Part shown: positions 13,455 through 55,727 of the stretch, one piece after another | Numbering within the stretch: the stretch's first letter is position 1 | How the letters are laid out: every line of letters begins with the position of its first letter | From: Flectonema sp. DT1601 | Taxonomy: Eukaryota | DNA length: 64,000 nucleotides | Direction: 5' to 3' | NCBI GenBank assembly: GCA_964019425.1 | Contig: OZ025790.1 | Location: 1,364,001 to 1,428,000, forward strand | Program-made: the position numbers and the translations under genes | Notes under the pieces: generated by a model | Seen by the model: the letters and a program-made list of their open reading frames with translations, nothing else | Told to the model about the DNA's origin: nothing | Databases searched by the model: none

Positions 13455-14104
13455 GGTTCTTTTCGTTAGTTATTATTATTATTATTATTGTTTTTTTTTC
13501 TCTCTTTTTTTTTTCTGTGTTAGTTTTTTTTTAATGTAAGACTTACTAAGTAAACGAAGGATGGCTCACACAAAGATGGTTGTCTCTAAAATGGTATAAA
13601 TAGCCATATTGACATAATATAATGGTGGCGTGTCAGCCGTCTCTTGCACTGCCTGCTTTGTAAAATCTGGTGAACACACGTCTGTGAGTCACGCGAATAA
13701 CTGGGCTTTCCCAGGGATTTTGACTTCCCTGACTTTGAAAAAAAAAAAAAAAAAAAAAGAAACCGAGTAATCCCGTTGTTGAGAGGGCAAACGCGATGAG
13801 TAGGACAGGTCTGACACCGCAGTGTCCCGCTTACTTTATTCGCTCCGAAGAAGTATTTCTTTTTTTTTTTTCGTTGTCCTCATGAACAGAATGCTCACAT
13901 TGTTATCGCCAATCCATCAGTGTGAAAACATTGCTAAAAAGATCCTTGAGTCTCACTTAGGGAATGAAATCAATACAGTCATTTACACAGTCTTTTTTTA
14001 TTAAATACCTGACCTGTTTGGATTTCTTTGAATTCATCGCCTGAGGAGGAGGAGGTGCTATAAATTAACTATTACTTTATTATCTTTTTAGGGTTTTAAC
14101 ATAT

Positions 14105-23209: not shown

Positions 23210-24932
23210 TAAAAACAAAAAAAACAAAAATGAACAAAATGAAATTATTTCAGTCAGCTACAGAAATCCATCTCATTCGTAGAAGCAATTGCCATGCAAA
23301 TGCCGTGAAATGTCAATCGAGGCTTTTCTTCATAAAAAGATTCATCGTTCCTTCATTTGTAATCTTACAATAACAGAAAGAGGGAGAGAGACACATTTGT
23401 AGAAATATTGAGGTAATCAGGTGTTGGTAATTGAGATGTTATCAGTCATCATTTATATTTTATTTAGGTTTTTTTAGTCATCAAATTCTAAGGTAACCAC
23501 TATCTGAATTGTTTTGGGAAATTTTTTTTTTTTAATTTTTTTTTTTTTTTAAACTTGTCAGCAATCTGCAATCCACCCCATCATGTGATGAAGTGTACTG
23601 AGGCTCTCCCTTTTGTGACAACAACTCATCATGGCCAGATGTTCCAGATAGCAATCTGAAACTGTTTTGTGTTTGAATATTTAAGTACCTGGCTGTTGAC
23701 CGTTTTCACGCAGATTATCACCTTTTCCTTTTTCTCTCTCCTAGGTTTCTTCTTTTAGTAGTAAAATGTGCTACGTTAACATATCTCGAGTGGTGATTCA
23801 CGCTCAGCGTCGGAATCTAATTAAACTGTTTTTGAGTTGAATTATATCAAATTAAAGCAACTTCATATTAATACACATGTTTATTTACAGTCGTTTGCTG
23901 CGCTGCCGCTGACAGTTAAAATTATCCAAGAGATTGTCGTTCCTTTTGAGATTGATAATACGGTTATCAGTTTTACCCAACTCGTGTGTTTTTGAGTACG
24001 TAATAGCATTATTAGTATCTCTCTCTGAGCATTTTTGACGCTCAGCAAAGGAGGTCGTTTTTGTTGCTTTTGTTAGTTGTCATCCTTGAGAAGTTAATAT
24101 CCGTAACTGTTCAAAGGAAGTGTTTTACAGGAAATCACAACCACAGAATATGTTGCACTATTCAGGAATCGAAAGCTGCTTTTCAGGGTTTTCCTTATTA
24201 CTTTACGATTGTTGCCGCCGTTTTGAACACTTCAGCAATTTTAATAAATATTTTTTGTTTTTCAGTAGATTACTAAAAAAAAGAGAAACGAATAAAGCAA
24301 CAATGCAAGTTTTTGTGACGTGTCCGGATTTGGGATTCCCTGCGGTGTCAGTCACAGTTGGTGCTGATTCTGTTGTGAGCGACGTGTTGACGACAGCGGC
24401 TGACGAGTGGGATGTCGATGCGGATAAAGTTGAACTGTCGTTCGCTGGTGATGCCCTTTGCGAAAGTAAGCGGTTAGTAGATTATGGAGTGGGTGCAAAC
24501 AGCGAGTTGGAAATACGAAAGAAGCTGGTTCGGATCTTCTGTAAAAACTGGTTTGTTGATGATAGAAAAAGGGAGAAGCTGCTTCTTTGGATGAAAGACC
24601 ACATTACGGAGGATTTATGTCTGGACACTCCCACATTCTCAGAAGATGGTTGCCTCACTATTGACAAAGGGTTGCTTCCTTCAGATGCCAAACGGATTTC
24701 CTTCCGCTATTCAAATTCCAACAGCACGCAGGTCATTTCACAAGTTACTTCTATTGGAGATATAGGTGTTTACAAATCACTTCTCTTGACCTTTCCGGTC
24801 TTAGTGGTGTCACCAGTATTGGAAGTAATTTCTTGTATAAGTGTTTACACGTCACTTCTGTTGAGTTTTCAGGTCTTAGTGGTGTTTCTAGTATTGGAGA
24901 TCATTTCTTGTCTGAGTGTTCACAAATCACTT

Positions 24933-25005
24933 GGGTAACGAAACTCGGATAGCGCGCCTCCTCGTGGTGTTGCCTGGATGCACCTTGTGTGTAACTAGAG
25001 TGCTG
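24933..25005 (+). ncRNA. HDV-like self-cleaving ribozyme
   Basis: P1 GGGTAAC 24933-39 / GTTGCCT 24969-75 with G1-U wobble; P2 AGCGC 24951-55 / GTGCT 25000-04; P3 GCC/GGT; L3 TCCTCGT; P1.1 CC / GG 24976-77; P4 TGCAC/GTGTA; candidate catalytic C24995 in J4/2 CTAGA. Confidence 0.85.
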
Positions 25006-25626
25006 ACGTATTGTTGTTGCTGTGTATTCTTTTACCCCCGTTTTATTTTCCGGTAGCCTGACCTTTAAAAAAAAAGGACAACATAGCAGAAGGTCAGGTG
25101 ATCCGGCCCGGGATACTCAGGCACCCAGAGCTCACAGGGGCCACCGGGTTTTTATTTTTTCCTTAGTGGCATGATTTCCCTTTACCCCCATTTCCTTCAA
25201 ACTTCCCCCGTTTAGTCTTTTCACGCATGGGGGGATTATAAGTTCAGGTCGCCTGAAATGTATTAACAGTATCAGCCCCGCGAGTTACTCGGGGAGCTCC
25301 CATGCAATGTGTGGAGAAAGAGGCCATCCCTCCCCCTACCTCTCTGCTTTACTACGTCGTTTTTTGTGTGTGGCATTTCTTTTCTTATATTCTTTTCTTT
25401 TCAATCTTGTTCCTTCACACGCAGTTGTTCGAGCGGTTGTGAACCACCTTGGGTCTCTTACGGTCTCCAAGCTACTGTTGTGCGAAGAAACAAATCTGTT
25501 GGTGCGGTGGCCTTCCGACGCCACCTGGACCGCAACTCGTTCACAGTGCCCTACCCGGTTCTCCACCGGACCGCCTGAGCGACGGGATCCATGGGATTCA
25601 AACCCCTAAACACTGGTTAATTTAAT
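24933..25626 (+). mobile_element. Short non-autonomous non-LTR retroposon (SIDE/RIME-like) with a 5' HDV-like ribozyme
   Basis: Absent from the paralogous locus; flanked by AATCACTT (24925-32, 25635-42), extendable to TGTTCA(CA/AC)AATCACTT; starts at the ribozyme G+1; ends in a TTAATTTAAT tail; 3' boundary uncertain (25626-25634). Confidence 0.75.
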
Positions 25627-26356
25627 TGTTCAACAATCACTTCCGTTAACCTTTCAGGTCTTAGTAGTGTTTCCAGTTCAGTTATTAAAAGACTTTCTCG
25701 GAAGTTACAAAAAAGGAACTGTTACGGTGACGTAGTCAAGTGGAGCTCAATCGGGTGTTGTAATTGAGGGGATGTGAGCAATATTATCTCATGTCATTTA
25801 TTTATTTCTCTACTCAATAATGTCAAAGTTTGTTACTGTTTTTACATTAAGAAGATCGTCACATCAATGTTTTAGAAGCAGATGCTCTCGGGGGGGCAGA
25901 CGCTTAAGAAGATTGAGAGTAGCAGATCATCACTCCACTTGGGTAGATAATACCACAGTCTGTGATGCTTTTAGATAAAAGATGTGTGTTCGCTCACACA
26001 TTCTTATCAAGTGTTTACTGGTTGCCATTGACCACCTTTTATTTTTAAAGTGTTCCCATTCCCTGGCATGGGTAATCACAAAAGCTAAACCCTGCTGATG
26101 TCCCTTCCCGAGAGGAAGTCTCCAACAGAAAGAGGCAGACAGTTTAGATACTAAGTAGTGACCTTGATAGTTTTATAATGCGAGTTAATTTACATTTTCT
26201 TTCTTCTTTGTCAAATGGCTGCATTTTTGAATCGATTCTTGATTTTTCACTTATTTTTTTTTTTTTTTCAAATATTGTAAAGAGTCTTGAGAGAAAGTTT
26301 GGACCCCATTATTTTATTTAGGAAAATTCTCCGTTGCCTACATAAAAAAAGTTGGG

Positions 26357-27746
26357 AAAACCTCTAATTCCACGTAAATGTTACTGAAATGTCCGATTTC
26401 AACATGAAAGTTTCCGAAACGGACAGCTCCACACAAAAAAGTTTCCGAAATGGACAGCTCCACACAAAATAGTTTCCGAAATGGACAGCTCCACACACGA
26501 AAGTTTCCGAAATGGACAGCAAAAAAAAATTTTTTTTTTTTTGTTGGCAAAATGAATTTTTTTTTTTTTTTTTCTCCGTTGCCTGCACCCAAAAAAACTT
26601 TTCGCTAGTGAACAACTTTTTTTTTCCCGCATAAAATTGCTATGGTAGGTAATTTCATTTTCGCTGTTCAGTAAACGGAAAGGTTTTTCTTTCGCTATTC
26701 ACTGAAAGTAATATTCGGATTTTTCGCTGTTCGGTAAGAAAACAAGGTTTTTCTTCGTTCCCAAATACACCGGGATGGCCGAGATGGGTTGGTTCTCAAT
26801 GAGGGAAGGAGTAATTTAAGGTAAAGCAAGTGCTGTAATTACAACTAATACGTGCAGGGCCTGAATCAACCTCTTAGTACTCCCTTTTCAACAGGTGACA
26901 TAATAATATATACTAGTAGCTCGCTAATCAAGTGAAAGTTAGTAGCGGAGTAGTTCGGCTGATTGAATCTTTAGAAAAGTGTTCCGTGGGCTACTTTCAC
27001 AGAAACTCCGAAAGGACAGTACTGTGTGGCTCAGTGAGGTGATCTCAGACTTGAGAACACTAAATGGTTTCGCCACTCCACAGCTATTCATGTCAAGCCC
27101 TAGGCCGCTGATCATGTATACTTGGTTTTTGCGCTCTCATACCTCATCTTGGTTGGTACGACGTGTAGCGGAGACTTGTCTCTGCGTAGGTGACCCGGCC
27201 CTGCACACATACCGAGCTGTATCACTCTTCTAAAGATTCATGATGTTGGATTTCTCTTGTCTCCTATCTGACGCTTGTGATGCACCTCTAGTATTTTAAT
27301 ACACTCTGAACTCTCATGGTTGTATGAGCTGACAAGTCGGGTGTCTCTACCCGAAATTCGTCCATCCCTATACCTGGCCCTGCACACATACCGAGCTATG
27401 CCGATCCAGGGGCGCAGTCAGGCCTAGGCCCAGGTCACACAGGTTCGGTGTATTTCACTCATCTCGTCGGATGGCCTTGCCTTACGTAGGAAAAAAATTT
27501 TTTTTTGGGAGAAAAAAAAATCCCCATGACTTTGGGCGACCCCGAAATGCACTGGCAGTAAGCTATAAAAAAAAAAAAAACAGCTGTCCATTTCGGAAAC
27601 TTTCGTGTGTGGAGCTGTCCGTTTCGGAAACTTTTTTGTGTGGAGCTGTCCATTTCGGAAACTATTTTGTGTGGAGCTGTCCATTTCGGAAACTTTCATG
27701 TTGAGATCGGACATTTCAGAAACTTTTTTGTGGAATTATAGTTTTT
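26357..27746. mobile_element. Foldback-like structure with ~165-bp inverted arms built from ~31-bp subrepeats
   Basis: 26357-26520 (AGTTTCCGAAATGGACAGCTCCACAC x4) is the reverse complement of 27583-27746; no TSD or transposase identified. Confidence 0.6.
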
Positions 27747-28785
27747 CGCTGTTGGGTACCAGCACTTTTTTTTTTTCTGAAAAAAAAAAAAAAAAAAAAA
27801 GGTTATGACCACCGAAATGGCCCAAAATGCACCAAACCTGTGGGAACTGGGGCTCCTCTTACCCGGTTTCCCAACTTGTGACCAAGTATTACTCATACAC
27901 CCATGACCGTAACTTAAAATACAAGAGGTGCATCACAAGCGTCAGACAGAAGTCAAGAGAAATCATTCTCCTAAATTTACTCGAAAGTCGGGGCAATTCG
28001 AACGTCAGCATTCACATTAGCAAGCAACCAGTCCTGAGTACTTAAAGAACCCAATCATTACGTGTATAAGCCACAGTCACACTTAGTATAACGTTAGTAC
28101 AGAGGACACGGATCTGGATCTGCTATGCAGGGAAGTGACTTGAACTCGTTCAACTAATTAATGTGTGCAGATACAAGCGCCGCGAATTGACGGGTCTGAA
28201 GTTATGCTTTCCGAAGAGAGCAACCACCCACGCGAGTATTATTTTGACGCTATAACCTGTGACTTTCAACACATAACAACCAGGGATAATTCTCAGTTAG
28301 GCCGCCGTCACCGTGAAGCTGCTACGAACATAACCCAACAAACAAGCAATTCCTCCAACTTTGTTCATATGTGCAGACACATAGTCAGCTACACACTTGG
28401 AGATTTTCTTAATCTCTTTAAGCTACTATGTTTCCGGCCATCTTAGAGATTGAGAATAAGAGTTCGTAGTAAAAGAGTAAAAGACTGGAGAGAAAAACGT
28501 TTGTGATTAGGCACCTGAACGTTTTACTGAACGAATCATCGTAGGCGAATTAATTTCAGCTATTTGCAAGAACTACAACAAACATTCTACGAAGAACATC
28601 AAAAGAAGAACCTGGCAGCAACGAGCAAAAGCCATCCCCGGATGGCTGGTTCTCTTTAACCGTGCTGGGGGTAGCAAGTAAACAAAAACTCAACAGGGAA
28701 ATCCACCAGTATGTAGATCCCAGTTCTATGGACTACCCAACAATAGCCGCATTCATTTTAAACAAAGCTGGTGCACCGCAGTGTC

Positions 28786-28859
28786 CCCCTTGCTTTCTTC
28801 GCTGAAGAGGGCTGGGTAAGGGGAATGGTCCAAAGAAAGATTGTTTTTAATCTTATCCC
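28786..28859 (+). ncRNA. Decayed compact permuted hammerhead (family A), GAAA segment lost
   Basis: P0 CCCCTTG 28786-92 / TAAGGGG 28817-23; stem I CTTTCTTCG 28793-801 / CAAAGAAAG 28831-39 (1 mismatch); CTGAAGA 28802-08; stem II GGGCTGGG / CTTATCCC (1 mismatch); TGGTC site 28826-30. Confidence 0.6.
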
Positions 28860-29271
28860 TTATCTCCTTTGATTCCATTATTGTTAGAGACATTCTCAAA
28901 GGAGCGACAGACCGGCGATTATCATTCGACCATTTTGACAGACATTTTAAACACCCAGAATATTGTTTTCACATGATTTTAAGAAAAACTCTGCAGGATA
29001 ATAATAATGATAACGACTGTACCATGGCACCCTCGAATGAAGGAATTCTATTCCTCACCAACACTAAGGAAAAGCGCAAGAAAGACGACTACAGCTCCGA
29101 TGAAGGAGAACTCGCACTCGTAATAAAACGAACAGATGTAGAAGAGATAGAACGCTGATCAAAAGCAAATATATGCTAGCCCGTCCTGGCGAGCTCCGAT
29201 GGACATTAAGGAATCAGTTCTTTTGAAATAGACCAATTGATGGATCCGATTTATTAATTAACTGGAATGAG

Positions 29272-29340
29272 GTCCCAAGGAACTTACTGATGAAGGCCTA
29301 AGAGGGACAAGTAGTATAAGATTAAGGCTCCTGAAACTAC
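29272..29340 (+). ncRNA. Candidate hammerhead ribozyme with non-canonical strand order and intact core (family C)
   Basis: P0 GTCCC 29272-76 / GGGAC 29304-08; stem I CTTA 29283-86 / TAAG 29317-20; CTGATGA 29287-93; stem II AGGCCT 29294-99 / AGG-CT-CCT 29325-32; GAAA 29333-36; stem III ACTAC 29336-40 / GTAGT 29311-15; GUA site at 29316. Confidence 0.7.
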
Positions 29341-29453
29341 GTATTCCACAGTGAATTATGGAACAGCAGAACAATGTGTTTTTATATTTCTTTCTTTTTT
29401 TATATTTTAATTTAGTGCACTTTTTTATAATAAACTCATATTCCAACTAAGAA

Positions 29454-30094
29454 CATGAGTGGAACCTTCTTATTTTTTTATAATTCATCCCCCCATGATA
29501 TATTTTATATAAGGGGACACCGCAGTGTCCCCCCTGCTTTCTTCGCTGAAGAGGGGCTGAGCATGAGTGGAACCTTGTTATTTTTTTATTATTCATCCCC
29601 CCATAAACATAACTCAGCCCCACTCATTTTGTTGGTATTCCGCGTTCACTGATATATTTTATATAAGGGGACACCGCAGTGTCCCCCCTGCTTTCTTCGC
29701 TGAAGAGGGCTGAGCATGAGTGGAACCTTGTTATTTTTTTATTATTCATCCCCCCATAAACATAACTCAGCCCCACTCATTTTGTTGGTATTCCGCGTTC
29801 ACTGATATATTTTATATAAGGGGACACCGCAGTGTCCCCCCTGCTTTCTTCGCTGAAGAGGGCTGAGCATGAGTGGAACCTTGTTATTTTTTTATTATTC
29901 ATCCCCCCATAAACATAACTCAGCCCCACTCATTTTGTTGGTATTCCGCGTTCACTGATATATTTATATAAGGGGACACCGCAGTGTCCCCCTTGCTTTC
30001 TTCGCTGAAGAGGGCTAACATGAGTGAAACCTTGTTATTTTTTTATTATTCATCCCCCCATAAACATAACTCAGCCCCACTCATTTTGTTGGTA
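29454..30094 (+). repeat. Tandem array of ~153-bp units (108, 153, 153, 151 bp and a partial unit)
   Basis: Units start CATGAGTG at 29454, 29562, 29715, 29868, 30019; each of the first four contains the hairpin GGGGACAC-CGCA-GTGTCCCC and CTTTCTTCG-CTGAAGA-GGGCT. Confidence 0.95.
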
Positions 30095-30099
30095 TACGT

Positions 30100-30600
30100 A
30101 CGTACGACACCTACGCCCAGCAGCAGCAGTCTTCCCACTACGAAGGACTACAACAGGAGCTGCAGCGCGAGAGAGAGGAGAAGAGCGAGCTACGGGATGC
30201 TCCGAACCCTCCAACAACAACTGGACGGATTGAGAGAAGAACTCAAGGCCCAACATGCTGAGGCGAAGAGGCAGCAGGAAACGGCGGGACGGGAAGCGAG
30301 AGAGATGCAAGAACGTTTCTTGCTAGAACTCGAAGCGCAACACGGAAGTGAAGCAAACGCCACCGGTGAAGCTGCCTCAAGACGGTATGAGGGAGCTGGA
30401 CGCCTCACGCAAGAAGCTGATGAAAGAAATCAATGAAGGGCAGGTAGCCGGACGATCGGCCATCCAAGAGCAGATGGTCCGAGAGGCCGGGAAACTGGCG
30501 CAGACTCAGAAGAGTTGGGAGAACGCAGCACGCAAGGAGCGATCCAGGGTGGATAACCTCTCGCTGGCACCGGAGTATTTGCCAGAGGGATCACGAAGAT
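30100..30600 (+). pseudogene. GC-rich frameshifted coiled-coil coding fragment, possibly from a mobile element
   Basis: Two overlapping helical-looking frames (LRTLQQQLDGLREELKAQH..., MRELDASRKKLMKEINE...); composition differs from the flanks. Confidence 0.4.
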
Positions 30601-30605
30601 TGCAA

Positions 30606-30646
30606 TGGTCCGAAGAAAGATTGTTTTTAATCTTAGCCCGAAACCA
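30606..30646 (+). ncRNA. Cleavage-site/GAAA half of the family A permuted hammerhead
   Basis: TGGTC 30606-10; CGAAGAAAG 30611-19 is the exact complement of CTTTCTTCG in the array; CTTAGCCC 30632-39 pairs with GGGCTGAG or GGGCTAA; GAAACCA 30640-46 pairs with TGGT. Confidence 0.7.
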
Positions 30647-31418
30647 ACTTGTTTGTTGTCCTACGAAATTTTGCTTTTTTTTTTTTGATTGACTGATAAT
30701 TATTAATACTAACTAGCTGGGTCCGGCGCAGTTATGACCTTAAACTGACTGTCATCTTACCTGATCCTTTTGGTTTTCATTTCTTGCTGAGTGATATGGC
30801 TATGTGCTGCCCAAATCTTTTGTGGTGCATTTCTAAAGCTTTTCGGTAAGCCCACAGTACACTTATAATGCTTTGGACAACTGGGGGTGAACGATCTTCG
30901 GTACTGTTCCGTGGTTTTCTATTTTCTTTCGTGGAGTGTGGGCATATGGCACATGTGGTCGTATTATAAAGAAAGATGTATATGAAAGAAAGAAGATTTT
31001 TTATTTTTTTCACCTTCCCCCCACTCCCAGATCGTTTCTCTTTTATTTTCTTTTGTTGTTTACAACCTGTTAGCCTCTGGGCAAGGTGGAGGCTGGAAGT
31101 CGATCACTTCCAGCCAATACTATGAAACTACAATCTTCGCGATTGGGTCCTTACTGATGCGGGCTACCCAGACCCCTCGTAGTCATCAGTTTGTATTTTG
31201 CTAACTAAACTAAACTAACTAATTAAACTCTACTTTTCTTATTCTCACTTTTCTGTTCTAAAATTAATGATACTAACTATTTTAAGCTGTACACGGGCTA
31301 ATAACTAAGAACGCCTTGAGTTATTTATAAGAAAAAAACCTTGTTTACGGTAAAGCAACTCATAAAAAAACCCCCCTTTTTTTAATCATCTCAGTTAATT
31401 TATTAAAAAAAAAAAAGA

Positions 31419-33056
31419 ATGCCTGACGCTGTGAGAGTAATTACCAGAATCCGACCGCTTCAAGAATCAGATGACTATCACTGTTGTGTTCCAGGTGTGT
31501 CTGGAAATAGCGTCATATTAAAAACATCTGATGGAGACCGAGAATACTCGAATGATATTGTTTTTGGTAGTTCTTCAGATCAAAGAGATGTTTTTGGATG
31601 CATAGGTCCAGACGTGATCGATTGTTTATTTGATGGAAGAAACGCATCCGTGATTGCCTACGGTCAAACTGGTAGTGGAAAGACTCATACTATGATAGGA
31701 AGTAAAAAGAATCCAGGAATCATTCCAAACCTTTTGAATAACATATTGGCAAATTGCACTGAGGGATGCTCAGTTCACATTAGAGCTGTTCAGGTTTATA
31801 ATGAACTGGTTTTGGATTTGTTTGACTGTGCTCCGTCAAACAAACGACTGCCTCTGAAGTTGAGGGAAGTGATGAAAGGAGTTTTTGTTCCGGAATCTGC
31901 GACTAGGAAGTTACTGTTACCGGGACAGGCTTTTGAAATTCTTTCGAAAACTTCTCAGAATAGAGAAGTGGCGAAGACTAACATGAATACGAACAGCAGT
32001 AGATCACACACCGTCTATATGATCGATTTGGCTCAAGAAGCACCTGAATTGTGTGGAGAATTAATATCGACGTTATATTTGGTTGACTTAGCTGGGTCTG
32101 AGAACGCTAATCGAAGTGGAGTTACAGGTCCACGTCTACAAGAGACTTCCAACATCAATCGGTCCTTAGCAGCTTTGAAAGGAGTAATGGGAGCACTTGC
32201 AGCAGGTGAAACCTTTACACCGTACAGAGATAGTGTTTTAACAAAGTTACTAAAAGATTGCATGGGTGGAAATGCAAAAACAACATTGCTGTGTTGTGTC
32301 TCTTCGTCGAAAGATGATGAAATTGAAACGAGAAGCACTCTCGAGTTTGGATTGTTGTCTCAGAAGGTAACCACGTTCGTTTCAAGAAATATTAGGAAAA
32401 GTTATCCTCAATTAAAAAACGAGATCGATCTAGTTCAGTCAATATTATTAAACCTGCGATCTGACATTTCCGTTTTAGAAAATAAATTACCCACCGAATG
32501 CAACACCATTCGAGGGATTCCTCGTACTTTTATATGTCCGCTGACTTCAGCATTGACACCTAACGTCACCGTTATGAAAGACCCGGTCATCGCCTCGAAC
32601 GGTAAGACGTATGAGTCGGAGGCTTTGAAGAGGAAATGGTTACGGAGTGACTCCAAGGGTGATATCAAACCAGTTGCAGGGATTTTGAATCTCCCTGATC
32701 CGGTCACCGATATGCTGTTTTTTAAAAATAAGAATTGTTGTTCTCAGATTGCTACCTGGAGAATAGAGAGACTTTGGCCTTCTGATGTCCTTCGTTTGGT
32801 ACTGGAATATTCAACACCTGAAATCACACTAGCTAGTAGATTAGTGTGTAGTACATGGGAAAGAGGAACCAAAGAAGAAGAGTTCTGGTCAACAATACTA
32901 CAGCGAGACTATCGTAATTACCCTCCACCATCCAATACTAAACTAGGTTGGAAGTCGTGGATGAGACAATATTTTCGCGCATGTGGATCCAGACCGAAGA
33001 GCTCCGCAGGAACAGGTCGCAGTACTGTTTTTGGTCTTCGATTGGCTGCTCCATAA
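31419..33056 (+). CDS. Kinesin motor domain fused to U-box and F-box-like domains
   Basis: AYGQTGSGKTHT, NTNSSRSH, LVDLAGSE, PYRDSVLTKLL (motor); PRTFICPLT...MKDPVIASNGKTYESEAL (U-box); WPSDVLRLVLEY...SRLVCSTW...EEFW (F-box). Confidence 0.9.
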   Translation: MPDAVRVITRIRPLQESDDYHCCVPGVSGNSVILKTSDGDREYSNDIVFGSSSDQRDVFGCIGPDVIDCLFDGRNASVIAYGQTGSGKTHTMIGSKKNPGIIPNLLNNILANCTEGCSVHIRAVQVYNELVLDLFDCAPSNKRLPLKLREVMKGVFVPESATRKLLLPGQAFEILSKTSQNREVAKTNMNTNSSRSHTVYMIDLAQEAPELCGELISTLYLVDLAGSENANRSGVTGPRLQETSNINRSLAALKGVMGALAAGETFTPYRDSVLTKLLKDCMGGNAKTTLLCCVSSSKDDEIETRSTLEFGLLSQKVTTFVSRNIRKSYPQLKNEIDLVQSILLNLRSDISVLENKLPTECNTIRGIPRTFICPLTSALTPNVTVMKDPVIASNGKTYESEALKRKWLRSDSKGDIKPVAGILNLPDPVTDMLFFKNKNCCSQIATWRIERLWPSDVLRLVLEYSTPEITLASRLVCSTWERGTKEEEFWSTILQRDYRNYPPPSNTKLGWKSWMRQYFRACGSRPKSSAGTGRSTVFGLRLAAP

Positions 33057-33074
33057 AGCAGTAGTTGTTAAGAT

Positions 33075-33244
33075 TGCCTAGATAGGACGAAGCCGAGGGA
33101 AGCCATTGCGGTGTTGACGTGCAAATCGCTCGTCAAAGCTGGGTATAGGGGCGAAAGACCCATCGAACCATCTAGTAGCTGGTTCACTCCGAAGTTTCCC
33201 TCAGGATAGCTGGAACCATAAAAGGAGTTACGCCTAATGATTAC
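33075..33244 (+). rRNA. Isolated, internally deleted fragment of cytosolic LSU rRNA (pseudogene)
   Basis: TGACGTGCAAATCG...TGGGTATAGGGGCGAAAGACCCATCGAACCATCTAGTAGCTGGTTC...CCGAAGTTTCCCTCAGGATAGCTGG is conserved eukaryotic 28S sequence; no other rDNA nearby. Confidence 0.9.
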
Positions 33245-52895: not shown

Positions 52896-53085
52896 ATACC
52901 TTCTCGGCCTTTTGGCTAAGATCAAGTGTAGTATCTGTTCTTATCAGCTTAATATCTGATATGACACCTTGTGTGTCAACGATATTATAGTAATTTCTTG
53001 TTGGGGTGTCGGGTAGCTTGGGGCAACTCAGGTCCGGCACAAGTGTTGCCCTGGAGCTGCACCACATCCAGGAGTGGCACACCCA
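52896..53085 (+). ncRNA. U2: U2 spliceosomal snRNA
   Basis: ATACCTTCTCGGCCTTTTGGCTAAGATCAAGTGTAGTATCTGTTCTTATCAG 5' end; stems IIa/IIb; Sm-like AATTTCTTG; 3' stem-loop CCTGGA-GCTGCACCACA-TCCAGG; followed by TTTTT. Confidence 0.95.
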
Positions 53086-53456
53086 TTTTTAATTAAAGTA
53101 GAAGACAAAGTCTCTTTTGAAATTTGAGAAGTTTCAGCACCGTGAAGAAGAAAAATCTCTTCTTCACATAGTACTGAATGCTGTGTTTCCCAATTAATTG
53201 TGAGGGAAATTTCCCAGATTTGGTTCCGTTGGAGTCACAATGAATGTGATTCGACGCAACTGTTGATCGAGAGTTCTGGTCAGTCGTTCTCTCGAGTTCT
53301 GATCAATCTACTGCACTATTCAAGAATCGAAAGCTGCTTTTCAGTTTTTCCTTATTACTTTACGATTGTTGCCGCCGTTTTGAACACTTCAGCAATTTTA
53401 ATAAATATTTTTGTCTTTCAGTAGATTACTAAAAAAAAGAAGCAAATAAAACAACA

Positions 53457-55242: not shown

Positions 55243-55347
55243 ATACCTTCTCGGCCTTTTGGCTAAGATCAAGTGTAGTATCTGTTCTTATCAGCTTAAT
55301 ATCTGATATGACACCTTGTGTGTCATATCAGATATTATAGTAATTTC
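55243..55347 (+). pseudogene. 3'-truncated U2 snRNA copy
   Basis: Identical to U2 for the first ~83 nt, ends within the Sm site; upstream flank partly shared with that of the full gene. Confidence 0.9.
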
Positions 55348-55727
55348 ATAAGTCTTACTTTGCAACAGGTATTGTCGAGTGAGGAAAGTATCAATTAACG
55401 TCACTGTAACAGATGCAAAGATGATTAGGTCGATTCAAAAAAATGTATGTCGTTCGGGCACAGCAGGTCACTATGTCTGTTTTCCTTAGAAAAATATTGC
55501 AGGGACTCAACGTTCAATCAGTCCTGCGCGTACGTTCTAACGCAAAAGGGATGTTATCGCTGCTCCACACATTACAATTTAACGACTCATGGCCTCTAAT
55601 AATGTAAAAAAAAAAAGTAGCCCTGCTTCTTTCACCTTTTGATGTTATTATTGTTTTTAAAGTTTTTAGGTTTATTTATTTATTTATTTTATATTTTTTT
55701 AAATTCGTATAAAACAGGCACAAAAAG

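What the first reader, a model, noticed from the sequence alone, without database searches (positions are those of the whole stretch)
28786..30646. Split hammerhead: five catalytic-strand copies amplified mostly in a tandem array, one intact cleavage-site module
Seen: CTTTCTTCG-CTGAAGA-GGGCT occurs at 28793, 29537, 29691, 29844 and 29996. The module at 30606-30646 (TGGTC, CGAAGAAAG, CTTAGCCC-GAAACCA) completes a canonical core with them: 9-bp perfect stem I, 7-8 bp stem II, 4-bp stem III, GUC site. A 32-bp direct repeat (28824-55 / 30604-35) shows the compact A-C-B form predates the expansion. Inference: either a discontinuous ribozyme with a ~590-nt insert or a trans-acting arrangement; the array may come from slippage or rolling-circle copying.
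Basis: partly seen in the sequence, partly recalled or inferred. Interest (0 to 1): 0.8.

Follow-up and report, generated by a model that had tools for sequence, protein, structure and literature searches.

The report
Knotted hammerhead ribozymes in protist repeats
This stretch of a single-celled eukaryote's genome carries two unrelated versions of a rare, knotted wiring of the hammerhead self-cutting RNA, published so far from only two environmental sequences: one is intact and predicted to cut itself, and the other was likely broken apart by rearrangement of a mobile repeat rather than built to work in two pieces.

Summary
The block order (CUGAnGA, cleavage site, GAAA) is the non-circular type-CSG hammerhead of Eckert et al. 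2023, published from two soil-metagenome sequences. HHR2 and the decayed compact HHR1 copy at 28786 both carry the extra stem I-II helix and AA linker of the published pair. A marine metatranscriptome contig places the 5' half of HHR1 next to the intact cleavage-site half, very probably directly. The split form lacks the extra helix, and its insert is a broken piece of a multicopy, LINE-ORF1-like gene. Array units stop 16 nt before the cut and hold no cleavage site, so they are not rolling-circle monomers. Verdict: new members of a very rare known kind, in a new setting (nuclear repeats of a likely euglenozoan). Cleavage and the mobilising enzyme are untested.

The parts
29272..29340 (+). HHR2: intact compact type-CSG hammerhead. 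Extra helix P0 29272-76/29304-08; stem I 29283-86/29317-20; core CUGAUGA 29287-93; stem II 29294-96/29330-32 plus 29297-99/29325-27; stem III 29311-15/29336-40; GAAA 29333-36; predicted cut after GUA, 29316/29317
   Evidence: relatives in runs X1 and X2
28786..28859 (+). HHR1, decayed compact copy: P0 28786-92/28817-23, stem I 5' strand 28793-801, core CUGAAGA 28802-08, stem II 5' strand, AA linker, GUC site; one mismatch in stem I (28832), one in stem II (28856), and it stops just before the GAAA block
29451..30095 (+). 153-bp tandem array; each full unit ends with an 8-bp hairpin and the HHR1 catalytic strand (copies at 29537, 29691, 29844, 29996); no cleavage-site or GAAA block, no P0 3' strand
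30096..30603 (+). Insert: frameshifted internal piece (about residues 450-643 of P0121, about 26 residues missing) of a multicopy Q-rich coiled-coil ORF family that is likely LINE ORF1
   Evidence: X1 contig 3
30604..30715 (+). HHR1 3' half: intact cleavage-site block (GUC, predicted cut 30610/30611), stem I 3' strand 30611-19, stem II 3' strand 30633-39, GAAA 30640-43, stem III strand 30643-46, then about 70 nt to a module boundary near 30715
   Evidence: boundary from loose ends
29172..29450 (+). Repeat module that carries HHR2; in some relatives it ends about 6 nt after the ribozyme (29346-47)
   Evidence: tables 5, 7, 8 (X1 contigs 1 and 2, X2 contig 8)
30720..31220 (+). Adjacent conserved repeat module with a sharp 5' edge near 30720 and a short CTAA-type tail (31201-31219); holds the unexplained structured motif 31121-31195
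13813..13851 (+). Dispersed, degenerate partial copy of the HHR1 5' part (hairpin and stem I strand; core lost)

Best explanation
The locus holds hammerhead elements in the non-circular C-S-G order in two sequence-unrelated families: HHR2 (29272-29340) is complete and predicted to cut itself after GUA at 29316, and HHR1 is a likely rearranged copy of a once compact ribozyme in a multicopy repeat that is likely moved through RNA. Mechanism: in a transcript of the + strand the four helices (stems I, II, III and a helix P0 that ties the base of stem I to the end of stem II) would fold into a double pseudoknot with the normal hammerhead core and cleave in cis, giving a defined end about 30-100 nt inside the 3' edge of the repeat module. 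Shown: block order, all core nucleotides, all four helices, relatives with other flanks. Inferred: cleavage; movement by a reverse transcriptase, most likely that of an APE-type LINE; origin of the array and of the 590-nt gap by repeated jumps (template switching or slippage) from the point just after the stem II strand, three to four times back to the module start and once into a LINE-ORF1-like sequence, before returning 10 nt further on and so deleting the P0 3' strand.
For: HHR2 is the only compact hammerhead of any order on either strand of 64 kb; 3 of 1000 shuffles give one at 4/3/3 pairs and 1 of 1000 at 4/3/4, before counting P0. P0 is 5 of 5 pairs in HHR2 (pairing probability 0.95-0.96, stem III 0.86-0.91) and 6 Watson-Crick plus 1 G-U in the 28786 copy; both are followed by AA and then stem III, the layout of published CSG-1 and CSG-2, which cleave in vitro. 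A 389-nt contig of RNA run X5 joins 28774-28823 to 30604-30714; 28823 is exactly the last base before the direct repeat, as a direct join would give. The differences listed for relatives across HHR2 (29271, 29277, 29279, 29323, 29328) all fall outside the core, P0, stem III and the core-side pairs of stems I and II (69 substitution and 39 indel rows not shown). A 105-nt X5 contig ends exactly at 29317, the first base after the predicted HHR2 cut; chance about 0.8-2% for the 14 listed ends, a hint only. The insert's family has a 28%-identical domain in a 2834-aa protein with OTU, APE endonuclease and reverse transcriptase domains.
Against: No cleavage experiment. No compensatory base changes seen within either family. 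HHR2 has a short stem I (4 pairs, about -3.8 kcal/mol) and A-U instead of the usual G-C closing stem II. 84 letters of the X5 contig are unplaced, so the compact HHR1 join is probable, not proven. That contig spans the HHR1 cut site, and an X2 contig spans the HHR2 cut by 6 nt (uncleaved RNA or DNA). Contigs cannot show RNA ends, and the one at 29317 has depth 3. No target-site duplications found for seven flank pairs tested, apart from CTAA-type words in one. No reverse transcriptase among 22 window ORFs scanned; only 1 of 21 distant relatives of the insert protein scanned carries one. No genome was held, so copy number in this organism is unknown. No relatives in JGI metagenomes, IMG/VR or GTDB.
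Confidence: 0.72

Rival explanations
1. The window's split HHR1 works as it stands: a discontinuous cis ribozyme across 590 nt, or the array RNA supplies catalytic strands in trans to the 30604 module.
For: Stems I, II, III are perfect and strong between copy 29996 and the module (about -14.1, -13.8 and -6.6 kcal/mol); catalytic-strand copies are intact in four of five places; two-strand hammerheads cleave in vitro (established knowledge, recalled).
Against: P0 3' strand is deleted; long-range stems at probability 0.02 or less in a nested ensemble of 29960-30660 (pseudoknots not modelled); insert is a frameshifted gene piece; none of the listed contigs of four runs shows the split junctions, while one shows the halves together; array copies are 98% identical, so their intactness may only reflect youth.
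Confidence: 0.08
2. The modules are pseudo-LTR pieces of a Penelope-like element or non-LTR retrozyme units, amplified through an RNA circle.
For: Hammerheads near 3' ends, partial tandems, shuffled module order and a boundary about 30 nt after the HHR2 cut resemble PLE structure; a neighbouring 332-nt module shows a head-to-tail joint in X4.
Against: Retrozyme units each carry a complete type I hammerhead; these array units carry one block only and do not break at the cut site. No PLE RT or GIY-YIG ORF in the window; the captured fragment points to an APE-type LINE.
Confidence: 0.2
3. In tandem transcripts the blocks pair between neighbouring copies in a canonical (circular) order, and the C-S-G order is only how units are laid out.
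For: Dimeric folding is described for PLE and satellite hammerheads.
Against: P0 locks the catalytic strand to the cleavage-site strand of the same copy in both families; HHR2 is a single copy with no second partner in the window; published CSG monomers cleave.
Confidence: 0.07
4. All motifs here are dead remnants or chance matches in repeat debris.
For: The locus is a nest of broken modules; three HHR1 pieces are decayed or cut short; Rfam finds nothing.
Against: Shuffle frequencies 1-3 in 1000 for each of two independent motifs with the same rare order, each with a fourth helix; Rfam models cannot represent this pseudoknotted order. This copy of HHR2 may be silent even if the family is active.
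Confidence: 0.08

Closest known systems
Type-CSG hammerhead ribozymes CSG-1 and CSG-2 (Eckert, Friedrich, Weinberg, Weinberg 2023, PMC10085705)
   Same: [quoted passage not shown]
   Different: Published: two similar 66-nt sequences from soil metagenome contigs, no host, no context. Here: two unrelated families in nuclear repeats of a eukaryote; HHR1 has A at core position 7 and a 15-nt linker; HHR2 has A-U closing stem II, a bulged stem II, a 6-nt spacer between P0 and stem I and a GUA site. Both fall outside the two RNAmotif CSG patterns shown in the supplement (CUGAUGA then G or UG, C before GAAA, linkers up to 10 and 8 nt).
Type-SGC hammerheads (HRIMA-1), same paper
   Same: Non-circular permutation with a stem I-II helix.
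   Different: Other block order; 583 sequences, all from metatranscriptomes, tied to viroid-like circular RNAs.
Hammerheads of Penelope-like elements and non-LTR retrozymes (PMC4209133; bioRxiv 10.64898/2026.07.22.740005)
   Same: Hammerheads in eukaryotic mobile repeats and tandems.
   Different: Those are type I (circular order) and complete in each unit; here non-circular, and array units lack the cut site.
HDV-like ribozyme in Pr77 of trypanosomatid ingi/L1Tc (cited in PMC12278014)
   Same: Self-cleaving RNA in a retroposon of a euglenozoan genome with co-oriented gene arrays.
   Different: Different ribozyme class, at the 5' end; no HDV-like fold found in 27800-31420.
Discontinuous hammerheads in rodent Clec2 3' UTRs (recalled, not checked)
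   Same: Core halves hundreds of nucleotides apart.
   Different: Those keep their tertiary contact and are conserved across species; here the split deletes the P0 strand and is seen only in this window.

Membership tests
Type-CSG hammerhead | Blocks in 5'-3' order C (CUGAnGA), S (cleavage site), G (GAAA) | tested here: met
   HHR2: 29287, 29315, 29333; HHR1: 28802 or 30005, 30609, 30640
Type-CSG hammerhead | All conserved core nucleotides (CUGAnGA, GAAA, UH) | tested here: met
   HHR2 CUGAUGA/GAAA/GUA; HHR1 CUGAAGA/GAAA/GUC; the 28786 copy lacks GAAA
Type-CSG hammerhead | Stems I, II, III abutting the core | tested here: met
   HHR2 4, 3(+3), 5 pairs; HHR1 9, 5-7, 4 pairs
Type-CSG hammerhead | [quoted passage not shown] | tested here: met
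   Present in HHR2 and the 28786 copy; absent from the split 29996+30604 form
Type-CSG hammerhead | Covariation in the stems | tested here: inconclusive
   No compensatory change among listed differences of relatives (rows cut); support is at the level of two unrelated sequences sharing four helices
Type-CSG hammerhead | Self-cleavage at the predicted site | not testable with these tools
   Only a hint: one RNA-run contig end at 29317
Hammerhead types I, II, III | Circular block order without pseudoknot in the core | tested here: not met
   No CGS, GSC or SCG hit in the window
Non-LTR retrozyme | Tandem units each with a complete type I hammerhead | tested here: not met
   153-bp units hold block C only (definition)
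Non-LTR retrozyme | Circular RNA monomers joined at the cut site | not testable with these tools
   Unit junctions lie 16 nt upstream of the cut; no raw RNA reads available
Penelope-like element pseudo-LTR | Linked RT with or without GIY-YIG ORF | tested here: inconclusive
   None among 22 window ORFs; no genome held
LINE-mobilised non-autonomous retroposon | Dispersed copies with different flanks | tested here: met
   Four runs carry modules with other flanks and in other orders; partial copy at 13813
LINE-mobilised non-autonomous retroposon | Target-site duplication and 3' tail | tested here: inconclusive
   No TSD in seven flank pairs; CTAA-type tail only at 31201-31219
LINE-mobilised non-autonomous retroposon | 3' end shared with an autonomous LINE | not testable with these tools
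   Full LINE sequence not retrievable; only the ORF1-like fragment links them
Natural discontinuous hammerhead | Split form keeps the stem I-II contact and recurs in relatives | tested here: not met
   P0 3' strand missing; split junctions not among listed joints; family definition recalled

The most novel reading that the evidence does not exclude
Type-CSG, so far two orphan soil sequences, is the working terminal ribozyme of retroposons in a euglenozoan nuclear genome, recruited at least twice independently; it cuts element RNA out of polycistronic host transcripts for copying by an APE-type LINE enzyme, and the conserved motif at 31121-31195, which has the same words in G-C-S order, is a third, undescribed wiring or a switch.
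Probability: 0.3. Interest if true: 0.75.

Novelty: new member of a known kind. Interest (0 to 1): 0.55.

Why it matters
Eckert et al. call the evidence for biological relevance of type-CSG weaker, since it rests on two similar sequences with no host and no context, and report no CSG example from genomes of known organisms. Two further, unrelated families with the same four-helix layout would double the independent examples, give the type a host and a likely role (processing of mobile-repeat RNA), and show which pattern limits hid it. HHR2 is 69 nt and can be tested in one transcription gel. In a genome where 18 of 18 long ORFs of the window lie on one strand, an active intergenic ribozyme on that strand would also cut polycistronic pre-mRNA.

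Tried and rejected
Rfam: no ribozyme family at gathering score in the window or at E<=10 in 27800-31420 (one chance antitoxin row). HDV-like descriptor (recalled consensus): 2 loose hits in the window, none in the locus; core-split hammerhead test in 27800-31420: 3 candidates, one is HHR2, none explains motif 31121-31195. Nested folding is uninformative for these pseudoknots (z -0.4 and -0.5). Sigma-70 promoter scan irrelevant for a eukaryote. Insert protein: no Pfam, no PDB sequence match, atlas scores 0.77-0.81 (lead only), model pLDDT 58.5 with no Foldseek match at E<=0.001. Earlier-findings look-ups by sequence and place returned nothing.

Full report
Setting. The window is eukaryotic and intron-poor: two U2 snRNA matches and an LSU rRNA fragment, kinesin, Fcf1, poly(A) polymerase-type, DNA methylase and BspA-type LRR genes among 22 ORFs scanned, and 18 of 18 ATG ORFs of 230 aa or more on the + strand. 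Its Fcf1 is 99% identical to an unnamed EukProt protein and 72-80% to four more; trypanosomatids are among the next named hits. Co-oriented gene arrays are described for Diplonema and trypanosomes. I infer a euglenozoan, probably diplonemid, host; this is not shown. No genome was held. The finding lies in a 3.6-kb intergenic stretch upstream of the kinesin gene.

Observation. The long-range arrangement appeared in 1 of 1000 shuffles.

What the order means. Eckert et al. 2023 (PMC10085705; read: parts 1-6 of 8 of the text, covering abstract to discussion, and all 28 supplement passages with 'CSG'; figures not seen) divide the hammerhead into blocks C (CUGAnGA), S (site) and G (GAAA). Types I-III are circular orders; SGC, CSG and GCS are non-circular and pseudoknotted. 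Their layout is: helix strand, stem I strand, core, stem II strand, helix partner, 2 nt, stem III strand, site, stem I partner, short linker, stem II partner, GAAA, stem III partner.

A missed intact ribozyme. A descriptor for all six orders on both strands found one compact hit in 64 kb, type CSG at 29287/29315/29333 (the same single hit with G-U allowed). 3 of 1000 shuffles gave any compact hit at 4/3/3 pairs, 1 of 1000 at 4/3/4. P0 was not part of the descriptor. So two independent sequences at one locus repeat the published four-helix layout.

Relatives. Seven public runs share a small part (0.05-0.13) of the words of 27900-31400; four of the seven were laid as contigs at 80% likeness. They cover discrete modules: 27990-28331, 29172-29450, 30100-30590, 30604-30715 and 30720-31208, with other flanks and in other orders (for example 30889-31208 followed after 50 letters by 29184-29346 in X1). 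In the marine metatranscriptome X5, a 389-nt contig (depth 25.5) runs 29863-29977, 28774-28823, 30604-30714. The piece ending at 28823 stops exactly before the direct repeat, as expected if it is joined directly to 30604, which would be a complete compact HHR1. However 84 letters of the contig are not placed and the tool marks both joints 'between: not known'; a closer view was not obtained, so this stays probable. Listed differences across HHR2 avoid the core and the core-side pairs, but 69 substitution rows, 39 indel rows and 54 pieces were not shown and no compensatory pair was seen. One X5 contig (105 nt, depth 3) ends at 29317, the first base after the predicted cut; for the 14 listed X5 ends and two sites this has a chance of about 0.8-2%. 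Contigs cannot show RNA ends, and two other contigs span a cut site, so this is a hint only.

The split form. Each array unit ends right after the stem II strand, 16 nt upstream of where the compact form is cut, and restarts at the module's beginning. Units therefore are not cleavage-defined monomers. The fifth copy is followed by a partial unit and then by about 500 nt that match, at 84-98% in two main frames, residues 476-643 of P0121 with a deletion and a frameshift; P0121 and P0122 head clusters of 6 and 2 members on different long contigs. Of 71 representatives found, 21 were scanned; one, 2834 aa, carries the shared domain (28% over 283 aa) ahead of OTU, APE endonuclease and reverse transcriptase domains, 17 had no Pfam family and 3 carried unrelated host domains. 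The insert is thus likely a LINE ORF1 piece. The element resumes at 30604, 10 nt past the jump point, and these 10 nt include the P0 3' strand. In a nested ensemble of 29960-30660 the three long-range stems have probability 0.02 or less (pseudoknots are not modelled, so this is only a sign of strong competition). The two halves could still cleave in a tube at high Mg2+, but nothing here shows selection for the split.

Mechanism, shown and inferred. Shown: order, core, four helices, modular relatives, nature of the insert. Inferred: cis cleavage by the compact forms (about 0.8); movement through RNA (about 0.65); an APE-type LINE as the enzyme source (about 0.45, resting on one captured fragment; a Penelope-like partner remains possible); template switching or slippage as the source of array and gap.

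Comparison and novelty. Membership in type-CSG is met on order, core, stems and the extra helix; covariation is inconclusive and cleavage untested. It is not type I-III, not a retrozyme array, not HDV-like. Literature searches: 'hammerhead + non-circular permutation' 8 papers, 6 listed; 'hammerhead + type-CSG' 1, the Eckert paper; 'hammerhead + diplonemid' 4, none on this by title; 'Diplonema + retrotransposon + ribozyme' 3; 'hammerhead + Penelope-like + protist' 12, 11 listed; five-term search from 2023 on, 5. None of the listings shows a CSG ribozyme in a eukaryotic genome; subscription journals are largely outside the library. Also seen: passages of PMC8557442 (Naiads lack canonical hammerheads; some have half cores 35-50 nt apart), PMC11167929, PMC4209133, PMC13725137, PMC12278014, PMC10161547 (no occurrence of 'ribozyme' in the main text; supplements not read and may bear on repeat content), and part 1 of 5 of bioRxiv 10.64898/2026.07.22.740005. 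Earlier AI notes of this scan report permuted hammerheads in animal retroelements and one CSG case in another genome; they are unchecked, are not used as support, and suggest that such motifs may be commoner in eukaryotic repeats than print shows, which lowers the surprise somewhat.

Verdict. Interest 0.55.

Noticed in passing
window 31121-31195 (+), within module 30720-31220: Structured motif with three words resembling the HHR2 blocks in G-C-S order, a paired stem III and a P0-like helix, but core position 9 is C and stems I and II do not pair; the strand after the site pairs with the core itself. 0 differences over 31056-31208 in contigs of X2 and X4. No Rfam, HDV-like or core-split match. 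Unexplained.
   Followed up: partly
window 27990-28331: About 340-nt repeat module; run X4 shows a head-to-tail joint (28328 back to 27997) and RNA run X5 has a contig covering just this module. No ribozyme found, folding no better than shuffles (z +1.2). Tandem or circular form possible.
   Followed up: partly
window 24120-25680 and proteins P0121, P0127, P0128, P0131: SUMO-like plus BspA-LRR genes are interrupted at the same position of an LRR repeat: about 690 nt inserted near 24932 in the window, and in-frame fusions to the LINE-ORF1-like protein in several database proteins. Suggests sequence-specific insertion into LRR repeats.
   Followed up: partly
window 26356-26542 / 27568-27747: Inverted repeats of about 187 bp (89%) built from 31-bp units, enclosing about 1 kb; looks like a foldback or MITE-type DNA element. 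A 51-bp piece of its interior recurs inverted at 27914-27964.
   Followed up: no
window 52896-53087 and 55243-55437: One full U2 snRNA gene and a second copy with only the 5' 115 nt conserved, flanking an LRR gene.
   Followed up: no
window 33063-33178: Isolated 116-nt LSU rRNA fragment directly after the kinesin stop codon; scattered 28S pieces are reported for Diplonema.
   Followed up: no
run X5, joint 30715 back to 30649: The 32 letters between include a short hairpin and another CUGAAGA word (table 5c); may belong to a further ribozyme family.
   Followed up: no
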